A stretch of 63,988 nucleotides of DNA, filler included, from Perkinsus olseni (lineage: Eukaryota), in assembly GCA_013115125.1 (NCBI GenBank). It is 3 parts of 3 records of this genome, joined end to end, with 100 filler letters (N's around TTAATTAATTAA, not from the genome) between each part and the next. Parts side by side here need not be neighbours in the genome. Positions count along the whole stretch, not along the records: positions 1 to 22,476 come from JABANN010000538.1; 2 more parts are not named here. One strand, given 5' to 3'. The translations under genes and the position numbers were made by a program. This document shows, one piece after another, positions 1,413 to 6,290 of this stretch. Positions within the stretch are counted from its first letter, which is position 1. Every line of letters starts with the position of its first letter. The notes under the pieces were generated by a model. That model was not told the DNA's origin, did not search any database, and worked only from the letters and a program-made list of their open reading frames with translations.

Positions 1413-4400
1413 TCATAGCGATCCAGCCTCAGACTCCTTGGCTGAGGTAAACTCCGCGCCTTCCGAATCGTCAGCTAAATCTTCTTTCTTGTCCCCGGGC
1501 TCCGGCTCCTTCTCCTCTGCTTTCATACCATCTTTCTCCGAATTTGTATCGCTCGGGCGCGCGTCCCCACTTTCATCAGGCTTGGCCGCGGAAGCTGGTG
1601 AACTGTCGTTTTCTGACGCAGTGGGCTCTAAAAATGCAACATGACGATAACGATCCCGCGACCTCAACCATGGTATCCCCGAATACTACCCTGCTTAGCT
1701 GTATTCGACGTCGGAGCGCCAGCGTTCGCTCTTGCAAGAACTGCGGCCTTCAGCTCAGCAGCCTGACCGAAATAACATCTACCACGATCGCCAATCGTGA
1801 AACACCGCGGCCACCTCGTCCGACTTGAGAACATTCGCGAAAATTTCAGATTTCCAAATGCCAAATATTTTACATTGACTAAAAAATATCTAGAATATCC
1901 CGGAACACATTAAAAATGATCTCCCGGTGACTCGGGAGGAAAAATTTTACAGAATCAGCCAGCAGCGTTTCCCCTCGGTGCCCTACTACCGCTTGCGCCG
2001 CCGCTTCCTTGTTGGTCTTCTCGTCGCGAACCCGTTTCGCCAAAACCGTGATCAGCTCAGTCACTTGCTCCGTGACTTGCTCCACACTCTCACGATCTCC
2101 ATGCAGACTCACCTGAAAATTACAAAGGAACGACGCATGCCGGGATCGAACCCAGGAGTCCTGGGCCAGGACCTCTACTACCATCGGAGCAGCAGTATCC
2201 GTAGACACTCGTAGTAGCACCCCTCGGCATCCTTTTCTTGCAGCCATCTCCCCAACCGCCACGTCAGGGTCACTGGTCATGCCGGAGTTAACTAACTCCT
2301 TCCAGGTTACACCCGTGGCTAAAAAATAGGGAAAAAATTAAACCGAAAACATACCTAGCGGAAAGGCTCGTTCATGTTTGAAAATTTGAATCTACTTTCT
2401 GAATTTTCCAGATGCAATTTTCTGCAATTTTTGCAAGCGAATTCTTCATCCGAACGGAAAATTCTCCACGATTTCGGGAAAACAGATGAAACAAGCATCC
2501 GTAACCGCCTTGCGCCGCAGAATAAAATCAGCACGAAACGCTTTCAAAAAGAAACAACCGTTTCCGGCGAAGGTCCCCGGATCGATCCCTGCCTCCTCCA
2601 TTTTATTACCCTGCAGCAACCCTTCAATATACAGCCTCCTGGTGACGTTCATCGAACGGTACGCCGCAATCTGCTCCCTCCCCTCAGCCGTACGGAGAAC
2701 CGTGCACAAAACACCATCGAAAAGATTCCTTCCAAACGCCGTGCGAATATGCTGAAAACAAGGAAGTGCGTTGAGGAAATGCAAGATTGCAAGATTCCCA
2801 CCTTGGCGTCTGAGTTAGTCTTCGGGACCAAGCCCACACCATTGATGGCCAGAATCGTGTCCCCTTGTTGGAGATGCTGCTGGCCCGGGAAGGGACTTAT
2901 ATATAAAACCAAATACCCGCGGGAAGTCGACTGAAAATGCAACCTGTGCGATTCGAACCCACGACCATTCCATACCTGCAGATCCAGTCCACAAACGAGC
3001 TCGCTCGGTCGGCCCGGATCTGACAACGTTGAGAAAGTTCAAGATTGCAAGAAATCAAGAACCATTACTTTCTTCCGGTACGACAACCCTCTGATCATAC
3101 TTCGTGACTTCGGACCTCGGAACCACTCGCAAGGGCACCTATTTCGTGGCGCGTGAAAAAATCATAAAAAATCCCAAATTTTTTCTATCGTAATTTTTGA
3201 TCGACGAACTCACATTGATTATTCGATTAGCGATGGAGGTCGAGCTGCCCGTGAAGCTTTGCTGAGGGGCCTGAAATAGGAAAAAAGAAATAAAACGACA
3301 CCTGCCGGGTTCGAACCCACGACCATTCGAACCTGATCATTCTTCCTTAACGTATTAAACAAATTCTGCTCCATCTCCGCCACTGTCATCCGCTGCCCTT
3401 TGCTCTGTCCTCCACTATTCCCATACGCCGCTTGCTGCTGTTGCTGGCCAGACGCTTGTCCAGTCGAAGCTGACAATACACAAGTCCTGAGCGATTTTTC
3501 GCGCGCCACGAAATTACCACCCTGCGACGGTCCCCCTGCCTCCGCCTTGTGTGCGTCAAGGAACTTTCTCAGAGCATCGAGTAAATCCGATACCGTCGGC
3601 TCGCTCTGACCACGTCCTGAACCACCAACAACTCCATGCAAGTAGCGCGCGCCCAGACGATCGATTATACCTTGCTCTTCTTTACGTTGTTGTTGATGTT
3701 GCGTCGCTCCGCCTGAATTCTGCTGAGCGGCATTCGTCTGGTTCCGATTGATCGAAGCCTGCAGGGCCGTCAACTGGACCACCAGTTCGCGCTGAAGACG
3801 CAGGTTCGATCCCCGGCGACGGTACTTTTTACTACCATTAAAGAAGCGTTATCTCTCTTCTGTTGCTGCTGCTTCCCCCGATCGTTCGCCTCGAGCCTCG
3901 CGATCAGAGATTGAACTTCCGAAACCGCCCGACTGGACTCGGTCGGCACGTGCGTCAGAGATCCCCCAGACTTCGGAAGTCGTCCTCCCGCCTGCGCCGC
4001 ATACGCCGCGAAGGGGTCACGGGCAGGAGGGTGTCCCAGATCCAGGCGAGCTTGGCCAGAACGAGACCTGAAAAAATGACATCCGCGGGGTTCGAACCGC
4101 CGCCCTAATATTACAGTTGGGACTGTGCGAGTGCGGCCACGTCGTTCGGGGAGAATCGCGGCCGACCCGCGGGCGCCCGCGTTGGAGCTGCCGGGGGAGC
4201 GGACTCCGTAGGCGGCGGAAAAATGCCACTCAGGCCCTGTGGAGTGCTTAGCGGCGCGGTCTGCGGCCCTGTCATCAACCGAAAGGTCCCCGGATCAGAT
4301 CCCCCCTATTGAATATTACCCGTCGAATTAGGATTATTATCGCTGGTCAGCCTGAAAGCCGCCATTAAATTATCACCAAGCCGATTAGCATCATCAGCAT

Positions 4401-4490
4401 TGCCATACAACCTGTCAAAAAAGGCGGAGCGAAGCAAAATCAATTTCGTTTATCTCCGTCCCAGCCGCCGCTCTTGGTGACATCTCAGAT
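1413..4490 (-). CDS. Long multi-exon protein: Pro/Gln-rich N-terminal half, PDZ-like segment, acidic C-terminal tail
   Basis: Frame-preserving GT-AG introns traced at 4269-4319, 4068-4114, 3792-3835, ~3470-3520, 3271-3332, 3139-3213, 3020-3068, 2931-2975, 2752-2801, 2541-2609 and 2113-2172. Spliced peptide CGLDLQSTSRGYLVLYISPFPGQQHLQQGDTILAINGVGL...HIRTAF resembles a PDZ fold (GD.IL.ING). Both ends uncertain. Confidence 0.6.
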
Positions 4491-5378
4491 CTCCCACTCC
4501 GCAAGATTCGGGAAGATTCTCAAATCTACGATCGAAAATTCACGTCGTAAAATCTACGCAGCGCTCTTCCCTATAATTTCGTGGCGCGCGGAAAAAACCT
4601 CAATCCCATTCAAAATGATACCATCATGCGACCGACTGCAAAGTCTAATCCGTCACGCGCCACGAAATTCCTACTTGGATCGCGAACTCTGCAGCTTCAA
4701 CAACTCCTGGGAAACGTTCTCAGGTGTATCTACAAAAAATAAATCGCGCATGCGTGCAAACGACGGATGGCCACCCTACTGTCTCCCGATGTTGCGATCT
4801 GACGGAAGGACTGGAGAAGAGAAGACACGTCTGAGAGAGAAAATCAATATTAGAAAAATATTACCCGGAAAAAATTTCGGTAATTTTTTTGAATTCCACC
4901 ATCAGAAAAATTCATTCCGCAATTCTCGGTATCATTGCAGCCCTTAAATCGATTAAACAAGGATCTCATCGAGCTTTCGCTATCCCAAGCAGGCAAGTTC
5001 GAACCCCGGCAAGTTCATTTTTCCGCAATCTCCAAATGCGTTCCAGCGACATGCTCGGAGAGCCGCGTTGAAGAAGAGCGCAAAAACTACGATTGACCGA
5101 ACTTTTTTCAGCGTCAAAAAAAGCGCTCAAAATCGTAGGCCAACAGAAGCTCACCAAACGCGTTTGATAATTCCTCCTATTTACAGCGATTCCGAGGGTA
5201 ATAGAAAAACACCGATAAATCGATCGCGCGATCGATTCATCATAAATATTCGACTTCTTCCCCCAAAAACTTGATCAAAAAATGCATTTTCCCCAAAATT
5301 CCGCGTGGTAGTTTCGCAGCGCGCGAAATTTTCACATAAAAAGCTTTTTCCCGAACGCAGTCAAAAACGCTTTCTCCC

Positions 5379-6290
5379 TCAGGTAAATCTCCTTTTCCCT
5401 CTACTACTCGTTGGCCCGTCATCACCATTGCTCTCAGTCGGCTGCGGCGGCGGAGGGGGAGGCGGTGGCGGCGAAAACTTATTATCAACCCCAGCAGCTG
5501 AACACGTTGAAACTCCAACCTCCATAAGACCCTGGGATCAACCCCATCACCTTGCATTTCTTCCATTCCCTCTCTGTCCATCCGCTGCGGGGAGATCTCA
5601 ATAGATCGATCCCCGCGAAACAACCCCGTGTTCTCAATCATATTCATCCGAACCTGCTCGACTCCGCCGTGCGCATGCGTGCAGATTTTTTGTGTCGGCC
5701 TACGTCCAGCCTCCTCAAGTCCGGCAAAGCTCTCGTCAGAGCATCAACTCCGACAGCAGTCAAATAGTTATACGACACATCAATCTGAAACCACCGCGCT
5801 GGAGCTATCCAAAGGTCCCCGGTTCGAATCCCCCTCCCTACTTCTTTCACCGCAGCAAACGCCCTGTTCGAGTCGGCCTGGACTTCCCTCGACAACCAGC
5901 TCGTAAACTCATCCGTCAGTTTATTGCCAGACACTGCCAGCGAACTCAGCCTCGCCTTCGGGTGCCCCTCCAAGCCCTCCAAAATCTCAATCATTCTGAA
6001 TGAAAAATGCCCCTCCTGGGATTCGAACCCGGGACCTGCTATTACCCCTGATTGTTCAGGCTGCACCTCGGCAATGTGACATGAACATGAACGTACATGT
6101 CCTTCTTAGACTCCAACAGCCGACTCAACTCCTCGCTCGCCTTACTCGGATTTATTTCCCCTGAAAATGTCATCCCCGGGGATCGAACCCGCGCCCTTTT
6201 TCTACCATCGCTGTTCGCAGTCGATAAGGTCGCGACCCTCCCTTCCGCCACGATGTACTTGAAGTCAGTCGACGGTTTACCTGAAATTCC
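5379..6290 (-). CDS. Leucine-rich repeat (RNI-like) protein, multi-exon; 5' end not resolved
   Basis: Removing introns 6161-6205, 5996-6045 and 5785-5841 gives LPRCSLNNQGMIEIL...LSSLAVSGNKLTDEF...VKEIDVSYNYLTAVGVDAL...LRRLDVG, matching the LxxLxLxxNxL pattern. Poly-Pro tail, stop at 5379-5381. Confidence 0.65.

What the first reader, a model, noticed from the sequence alone, without database searches (positions are those of the whole stretch)
3271..6205. B-box retained while T-stem pairing decays, in either orientation: points to a DNA-level function
Seen: the invariant GGTTCGAnyCC core is kept but the outer T-stem pairs mismatch (GTGGG/CCGGC in 3271-3332, CCGGG/CCCAG in 5996-6045, GCGGG/CCCGG in 6161-6205). 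Adjacent introns of the same gene hold the cassette in opposite orientations (5785-5841 antisense; 5996-6045 and 6161-6205 sense). Inference: selection acts on a double-stranded protein-binding site rather than on an RNA hairpin or splicing enhancer.
Basis: partly seen in the sequence, partly recalled or inferred. Interest (0 to 1): 0.75.

Follow-up and report, generated by a model that had tools for sequence, protein, structure and literature searches.

The report
Conserved B-box motifs in Perkinsus introns
Many short introns of the shellfish parasite Perkinsus carry, in either direction, a 35-base piece of a tRNA gene that has kept the letters a known DNA-binding factor reads but lost the pairing an RNA would need, so these pieces are probably maintained as protein landing sites on the DNA, although binding has not been shown.

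Summary
All four named introns belong to one 913-aa PDZ-type gene of a Perkinsus (olseni-like) genome; 10 of the 22 introns modelled hold a tRNA 3'-half cassette, 6 sense and 4 antisense. Copies chosen by flanks only (92) keep five B-box invariants with 15 mismatches in 460, while 89 of 92 differ in the nine bases behind. In 331 copies the outer T-stem pairs no better than shuffles (42 fully paired; tRNAs 58 of 64). Orientation is unbiased (125 sense, 133 antisense). Conservation spans tRNA positions 43-78, about the footprint of TFIIIC's tauB module, and the A-box is mostly absent. Best reading (0.6): tRNA-derived, ETC-like DNA sites under selection, roughly 3,500 per genome. Not shown: binding, function, cross-species conservation; tauB subunits were not found. 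Unexplained: the halves on either side of the core are unlinked, like mosaics. The scan noted these cassettes many times in this genome, mostly as relics or introners; the tests here argue against plain relics.

The parts
1414..7978 (-). Host gene, 913 aa, annotated as PDZ domain-containing protein; 22 introns modelled between 1628 and 6205, three more predicted upstream
3271..3332 (-). Intron named in the finding (62 nt)
   Evidence: junction peptide in P0006; fits RNA contig length
3293..3326 (-). Cassette (tRNA positions 43-76), sense; outer stem WC, wobble, mismatch
   Evidence: score 23.9 bits
5785..5841 (-). Intron named in the finding (57 nt)
   Evidence: RNA joint in 4 of 4 runs
5812..5845 (+). 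Cassette, antisense; all three outer pairs broken; its weak tail overlaps the splice donor
   Evidence: 31.8 bits
5996..6045 (-). Intron named in the finding (50 nt)
   Evidence: RNA contig piece ends at 5995
6005..6038 (-). Cassette, sense; one outer mismatch; full tail
   Evidence: 27.6 bits
6161..6205 (-). Intron named in the finding (45 nt)
6165..6198 (-). Cassette, sense; one outer mismatch; tail runs into the acceptor
   Evidence: 28.7 bits
2128..2161 (-). Cassette, sense, in intron 2113-2181
2570..2603 (+). Cassette, antisense, in intron 2319-2609; full head and tail
2935..2968 (-). Cassette, sense, in intron 2931-2975; outer stem intact, pair 52-62 broken
3794..3827 (+). Cassette, antisense, in intron 3792-3835; nearest genomic relative has 3 mismatches in 34
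4074..4107 (-). Cassette, sense, in intron 4068-4114
4283..4316 (+). Cassette, antisense, in intron 4269-4319, with a damaged core (C56 and G57 changed)
1632..1665 (-). Eleventh, core-damaged cassette with intact head and tail, sense, in intron 1628-1689 (below the profile threshold)

Best explanation
The cassettes descend from the 3' third of tRNA genes of several types and are now kept as double-stranded binding sites, most likely for the tauB module of TFIIIC: an A-box-less, extended B-box of the ETC kind. Steps: (a) origin from tRNA genes: shown by register (variable-loop head, box, discriminator, T-run). (b) Unequal conservation and loss of stem pairing in both orientations: shown. (c) Selection acts on each copy as DNA: inferred. 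(d) The binder is TFIIIC: inferred from the match between conserved positions and published contacts. (e) Function: most likely chromatin architecture inside Pol II gene bodies (boundary or SMC-loading sites, no Pol III transcript), placed in introns because these hold much of the non-coding space; this step is by analogy only (about 0.3).
For: Flank-only selection: 95 genome-wide matches against 2 for the control; after dropping 3 true tRNA-Met genes, G53 90/92, T55 89/92, C56 91/92, A58 89/92, C61 86/92, with position 66 evenly split 21/25/23/23. Changes stay inside tolerated sets: 54 is T or A (79, 11, 1, 1), 57 mostly purine, 60 pyrimidine, 65 C or G. Uniform mutation from 23 tRNA types cannot give the core together with the observed pairing: at 30-40% divergence the core falls to 0.60-0.69. 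Tail kept at a fixed distance in both orientations (best offset 0 in 57 of 94 sense and 46 of 89 antisense copies), so it is not only a polypyrimidine tract. Head kept when copies are chosen by core and tail alone (C48 185/211, C50 179/211). Information is confined to 43-78; human tauB covers 35 bp, 10 before and 14 after the box, with base contacts at box positions 2, 4, 5, 6, 10 (10.1101/2023.05.16.540835, passages; mapping to 53, 55, 56, 57, 61 is mine). Yeast tauB also contacts a base upstream (position 48 by the paper's own offset) and bases downstream that are conserved at ETC loci (PMC11724288, section 26 and passages). A-box-like match upstream of only 16 of 328 copies against 63 of 64 tRNAs. 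A tau95 gene is present (E 2.9e-9). Other intron motif families also lie both ways and have short footprints.
Against: No binding, chromatin or cross-species data. The tauB families PF04182, PF24101 and PF12657 gave no match (the search is exon by exon and had no eukaryote control). The profile resembles that of 23 tRNA types, so much of its shape is inherited. Subfamilies persist: 25 pairs identical at 63-71 against 2.7 expected. Head and tail are unlinked (z 0.6, against 11.6 and 11.4 within halves), which the model does not explain and which could itself abolish stem pairing. Degenerate positions shift with orientation more than intron interiors do (G:C 253:144 against 1.16). Two of 11 copies in this gene have damaged cores. 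No enrichment at gene starts and little clustering by gene (138 same-gene pairs against 112 +/- 17). Strand calls come from my own gene finder (18 of 22 seed introns exact).
Confidence: 0.6

Rival explanations
1. Element-level selection: a small tRNA-derived mobile element (SINE-like or introner-like) whose copies need an intact B-box to spread; the host does not select on them.
For: Subfamilies of tails in unrelated genes; one close relative of the 3796-3829 copy; a ~300-bp repeat with four copies at 91-93% identity carries a cassette; short introns are largely filled by the cassette; P. marinus has amplified tRNA genes and tRNA-targeting Dada transposons (PMC3706591, passages).
Against: Intact cores in 82 of 92 copies would need very young copies, yet only 6 of 317 have a neighbour within 1 mismatch, some of them in paralogous or tandem pairs and that repeat (the sample is about a tenth of all copies). 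No target-site duplications above a local control. No fixed distance to either splice site, unlike elements that bring their own splice sites. Mostly no A-box. Free positions track the host strand.
Confidence: 0.2
2. DNA-level constraint, but the binder is not TFIIIC: another factor (a lineage-specific protein, or a recombinase acting on the near-palindromic core, which would also explain head/tail mosaics).
For: Head and tail behave as independent modules that meet in the core: nearest-neighbour distance 5.55 observed, 5.67 after swapping halves, 6.40 after column shuffling; head-tail to tail-tail linkage ratio 0.13 against 0.7-1.1 in simulated descent at 3-30% divergence; tauB subunits not detected.
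Against: Conserved positions and span match tauB contacts; any organism that transcribes tRNA genes with this box needs a B-box reader (established knowledge); class-level head-tail association is borderline, not nil (p=0.051); no candidate enzyme was sought.
Confidence: 0.1
3. Neutral relics of many tRNA gene types, decaying evenly; the conserved core is an effect of pooling tRNAs and of how copies are found.
For: The pooled tRNA profile has the same peaks and troughs; several earlier notes of this scan read them so.
Against: Flank-only and head-plus-tail selection still return intact cores; 89 distinct tails in 92 copies is out of reach at 3-5% divergence even with 100 sources; only 3 of 331 tails match a sampled tRNA in 9 of 9 (23 types sampled, about half of those expected).
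Confidence: 0.05
4. RNA-level role: a hairpin or splicing signal in the pre-mRNA or excised intron.
For: Sense copies often use the T-run near the acceptor; bases shift toward G/T on the mRNA strand; all three outer pairs form in 25 of 125 sense against 7 of 133 antisense copies.
Against: Both figures equal their own shuffles (21.7 and 9.2); no strand bias; asymmetric head and tail kept in both orientations; six introns fold no better than shuffles (z -1.04 to 1.90); no acceptor-stem partner upstream; no Rfam match other than one true tRNA in the window.
Confidence: 0.05

Closest known systems
Extra-TFIIIC (ETC) sites of budding yeast and human; COC sites of fission yeast
   Same: B-box without A-box, with a conserved 3' extension of about 10 bases (PMC3395662, passages; PMC12409998, passages); span close to the tauB footprint.
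   Different: Yeast has eight ETC sites in divergent intergenes and human about 1,800 near promoters; here an estimated 3,500 in 40 Mb, about four fifths in introns (267 of 331), spread along genes, and still in tRNA register up to the T-run. Occupancy untested.
C. elegans extra-TFIIIC sites / CeRep3 repeats
   Same: Hundreds of dispersed tRNA-like repeats that bind TFIIIC without Pol III (PMC6950938, passages).
   Different: Those carry both A- and B-box and cluster on heterochromatic arms; these lack the A-box and sit in short introns of expressed genes.
tRNA-derived SINEs and tRNA pseudogenes
   Same: tRNA origin, dispersed, both orientations.
   Different: SINE heads keep the 5' part with both boxes and have a body, tail and target-site duplication (recalled); here only positions 43-78 carry information, no duplication signal, and decay is very uneven.
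Introner elements
   Same: Repeated sequence that fills much of a short intron in unrelated genes.
   Different: Introners are near-identical, oriented and bring fixed splice sites (recalled); these are diverged, unoriented and at variable distance from both splice sites.
Dada transposons of Perkinsus marinus
   Same: Mobile DNA tied to tRNA genes in the same genus; a possible source of broken tRNA genes (PMC3706591, passages).
   Different: They are 4-11 kb transposase elements that insert at the A-box; no link to the cassettes was tested.

Membership tests
ETC sites | B-box with the invariant contact bases | tested here: met
   15 mismatches in 460 at 53, 55, 56, 58, 61 in 92 flank-selected copies
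ETC sites | Conserved extension 3' of the box at fixed distance | tested here: met
   Tail 72-76 at offset 0 in both orientations; identity with the yeast extension bases not compared (figure and supplement not seen)
ETC sites | No A-box, no intact Pol III gene | tested here: met
   16 of 328 upstream A-box matches, controls 2 of 325 and 2 of 323, tRNAs 63 of 64
ETC sites | TFIIIC bound, TFIIIB and Pol III absent | not testable with these tools
   No chromatin data
ETC sites | Organism encodes the B-box-binding tauB module | tested here: inconclusive
   tau95 found; PF04182, PF24101, PF12657 not found in an exon-by-exon search
ETC sites | Site conserved between related species | not testable with these tools
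   No related genome held; a metagenome scan found no related locus
Functional tRNA or T-arm RNA | T-stem pairs 49-65, 50-64, 51-63 with covariation | tested here: not met
   42 of 331 fully paired, each pair at shuffle level, mutual-information ranks 435, 536, 619 of 630
Introner elements | Fixed splice sites within the element and one orientation | tested here: not met
   125:133 orientation; wide spread of distances to splice sites
Introner elements | Intron gained at the insertion site | not tested
   Needs orthologous gene structures
tRNA-derived SINE | A- and B-box head, body, target-site duplication, near-identical copies | tested here: not met
   the separate ~300-bp repeat was not classified

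The most novel reading that the evidence does not exclude
Perkinsus uses its short introns as a genome-wide scaffold of DNA landing sites: thousands of tRNA-derived TFIIIC sites, beside several other orientation-free motif families, organise chromatin inside gene bodies, and the B-box sites renew themselves by exchanging head and tail halves at the near-palindromic core.
Probability: 0.2. Interest if true: 0.85.

Novelty: new variant of a known kind. Interest (0 to 1): 0.66.

Why it matters
If binding is confirmed, this would be a very dense set of lone TFIIIC sites, placed inside transcribed Pol II genes rather than at boundaries or promoters, in a lineage next to the dinoflagellates, whose chromatin is unusual (recalled). 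It would give short introns a DNA-level reason to be kept, and offers thousands of natural variants of one site with which the architectural role of TFIIIC could be tested. It also changes the reading of many earlier notes on this genome from relics to constrained sites. Five searches of the held library found no description: Perkinsus + B-box + intron (1 unrelated paper), Perkinsus + TFIIIC (0), Perkinsus + tRNA-like + introns + genome (0), tRNA-derived + introns + alveolate + B box + P. marinus (1 unrelated), Perkinsus + introns + conserved motifs + chromatin + intronic (0); subscription journals are mostly not covered.

Tried and rejected
Paralogue or allele of the host gene for rate estimates: only the self match (the DNA search scores few candidates, so this says little). 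A long exact pattern built from two window copies: 0 matches. Paralogous pairs with cassettes among held loci: too few. Related locus in metagenomes: none. Earlier notes on look-alikes in other genomes: none. Strain polymorphism in introns: the four runs laid were contigs and showed none there. First automatic gene model gave no solution and was replaced. tauB searches were blank but uninformative. Target-site duplications looked slightly enriched against cross-locus shuffles but not against a same-locus control. Acceptor-stem pairing with upstream sequence: none. Regular spacing or shared orientation of neighbours: none seen (78 same, 69 opposite). Two separate genes at 1414-5052 and 5435-6280: my first guess, rejected. 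The spacer-length distribution is known only for the loci held, not for the whole genome. Pfam on single exons gave only sub-threshold PDZ and LRR hints.
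Full report
Setting. The window joins three contigs; the finding lies on the first, G000:C2833, of a 39.9-Mb genome. Proteins place it in Perkinsus, closest to P. olseni. Bases 1414-7978 on the minus strand are one gene: a 2917-nt contig from a probable RNA run spans 5995 to 1260, my 22-intron model fits its offsets and 21 of 22 junction peptides occur in the deposited 913-aa protein P0006 (the other differs by one codon). Ten of these 22 introns hold the cassette, six sense and four antisense, and an eleventh holds a core-damaged copy. 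Positions below use tRNA numbering, the box being 52-62.

Observation. The cores, stem halves and orientations are as reported. Each of the three quoted stems has one true mismatch, so they prove little alone. The strict box occurs 17 times in the window against 0.41 expected and 2271 times in the genome against 208 for the control (this count includes tRNA genes and counts palindromic sites twice).

Anatomy. A profile learned from fetched loci shows three blocks in exact tRNA register: a head at 43-50, the box with 63-65, and a tail of C72, A73 and a T-run; information falls to about 0.2 bit or less before 43, at 66-69 and after 79. I then held 879 kb in 160 stretches, 2.2% of the genome and chosen for motif richness, and predicted genes with a self-trained finder that recovered 18 of 22 seed introns exactly. 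A head-plus-box profile found 331 copies outside ARAGORN tRNA calls, against 3 in reversed sequence: 267 in introns, 42 between genes, 22 in predicted exons. The set includes at least two tRNA genes cut at locus ends and copies of a 300-bp repeat. Density is 0.81 per kb in introns and 0.24 between genes; scaling by strict matches gives roughly 3,500 copies in the genome (a rough figure).

Is the core conserved beyond ascertainment? A pattern that fixed only head and tail and left 51-71 free gave 95 matches against 2; all 95 were fetched. Without 3 true tRNA-Met genes, the five invariants 53, 55, 56, 58, 61 show 15 mismatches in 460 and 82 of 92 copies keep all five, while position 66 is evenly split. 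The nine bases 63-71 are distinct in 89 of 92 copies; simulation needs about 15-25% divergence for 10-50 source types and excludes 3-5% even for 100 sources. Substitutions stay within tolerated sets, for example T54 to A eleven times but to C once. The reverse tests agree: selection by core and tail returns the head (C48 185 of 211, C50 179 of 211), and selection by head and tail returns five intact invariants in 105 of 133 hits, of which about 19 are expected false. Against this, the pooled profile of 23 tRNA types has the same general shape, so it is the contrast with tail diversity and lost pairing, not the logo, that carries the argument.

Stem. In 64 unique tRNA 3' halves all three outer pairs form in 58 and each pair covaries (p 0.0005). 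In 331 cassettes all three form in 42; Watson-Crick pairing is 31%, 46% and 42%, equal to shuffles, and the pairs rank 435, 536 and 619 of 630 by mutual information. Sense copies are fully paired more often than antisense (25 of 125, 7 of 133), but both match their own shuffles. Six introns fold no better than shuffles. Descent from tRNA types with even mutation cannot join a core near 0.98 to such pairing (the 0.98 there is from the profile-selected set, the unbiased figure being 0.93-0.99).

Orientation. Of 267 intronic copies, 258 passed the confidence filter: 125 sense, 133 antisense, p=0.66; without the flank-selected ones 94 and 89. The tail is kept at the same distance in antisense copies (C72 67 of 89, A73 62 of 89; best offset 0 in 46 of 89), where it cannot serve the acceptor. 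Neighbours share orientation at random (78 against 69) and copies are spread along genes. Degenerate positions do shift with orientation toward G and T on the mRNA strand (49, 51, 60, 62, 67; p from 0.003 to 8e-8). This fits change in place under strand-biased mutation, but the shift exceeds that of intron interiors and may include RNA-level selection.

Mobility. There is no target-site duplication signal above a same-locus control and no fixed distance to either splice site. Only 6 of 317 copies have a neighbour within one mismatch; the copy at 3796-3829 has one relative within three mismatches in the whole genome. Tail subfamilies exist (25 identical pairs against 2.7), so the copies share ancestry and some copying has occurred.

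An unexplained feature. Head positions are linked to each other and tail positions to each other (z 11.6, 11.4), but head and tail are not linked (z 0.6). Swapping halves between copies leaves nearest-neighbour distances almost unchanged, and simulated descent gives much more linkage. The cassettes look like mosaics joined in the core. Exchange between copies, or selection remodelling the head, are both possible; a class-level test is borderline (p=0.051).

Mechanism. The best fit is a DNA site for TFIIIC's tauB module. Human tauB orders 35 bp, 10 before and 14 after the box, with base contacts at box positions 2, 4, 5, 6 and 10 (10.1101/2023.05.16.540835, passages). Yeast tauB adds a contact upstream, at 48 by the paper's own offset, and contacts downstream that are conserved among ETC loci (PMC11724288, section 26 and passages; supplements not seen). 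Yeast ETC sites are B-boxes with a 10-base 3' extension (PMC3395662, passages). Here the conserved span is 43-78, and an upstream A-box match is found for 16 of 328 copies against 63 of 64 tRNAs. A tau95 gene is present; three tauB families gave no match in a search that works exon by exon. What bound TFIIIC would do in introns is inferred from insulator and architectural roles elsewhere (PMC12409998 and PMC6950938, passages). Other intron motif families in this genome also lie in both orientations with short footprints, which suggests introns are a general place for DNA sites here. PMC3706591 (passages) reports amplified tRNA genes and Dada transposons in P. marinus, a plausible source of fragments. 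Papers seen only as listings were not used.

Earlier notes. The scan recorded these cassettes in many other pieces of this genome, mostly as relics or intron-seeding elements; they gave me the Dada, CeRep3 and ETC leads. My tests agree on tRNA origin, disagree on even decay, and did not test intron gain.

Verdict. It works like an ETC site but cannot be filed as one until occupancy is shown. New variant of a known kind; interest 0.66.

Noticed in passing
window 22477-22576 and 45042-45141: The window is three contigs joined by N-linkers; only 1-22476 is G000:C2833. The first contig has 12 strict box sites, the other two 3 and 2.
   Followed up: yes
window 3139-3213, 3470-3517, 4412-4674: A second intron motif family of about 17 bp, in both orientations (39 sense, 26 antisense for its top word; 136 anchored sites in the sample).
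   Followed up: partly
window 4730-4779, 5654-5703, 1300-1315: A near-palindromic GC-rich motif recurs in introns and downstream of the gene (7 sense, 16 antisense for its top word).
   Followed up: partly
window 1381-1411, 2752-2801, 3020-3068, 11400-11425, 12254-12300, 15950-15980: A 20-30-bp motif with a short tandem repeat recurs; RNA-run contigs from another locus match 2768-2798.
   Followed up: no
window 7380-17100, many copies: A very frequent bipartite motif family (about 50 short-word hits in the first contig) with an upstream extension of about 30 bp; perhaps the 39-bp element of note e1-7243189.
   Followed up: partly
L037:3720-4032, L085, L032, L159: A ~300-bp dispersed repeat, four copies at 91-93% identity, that carries a B-box cassette and another of the enriched motifs; its first words resemble window 19501-19535 by eye.
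   Followed up: partly
window 18517-18593: RNA-confirmed 77-nt intron that holds a nearly full-length tRNA-like sequence with an A-box-like start, unlike most cassettes.
   Followed up: partly
L192 (G000:C2626:22726-25830): TFIIIC tau95-like gene, lying within about 2 kb of a tRNA-Ile gene.
   Followed up: partly
L062 (G000:C2680): Tandem array of nine tRNA-Thr-like genes, several with changed boxes or anticodon.
   Followed up: no
window 13965-14090: Tandem 21-bp repeat built on the 17-bp motif family; one RNA-run contig lacks 63 bases of it.
   Followed up: no
window 24550-24622: True tRNA-Lys(CTT) gene; its variable-loop region matches the heads of the cassettes at 2935-2968 and 3293-3326.
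   Followed up: partly
window 14146-15003: Endonuclease/exonuclease/phosphatase-family gene, 96% and 90% to P. olseni and 73% to P. chesapeaki proteins; used to place the organism.
   Followed up: yes
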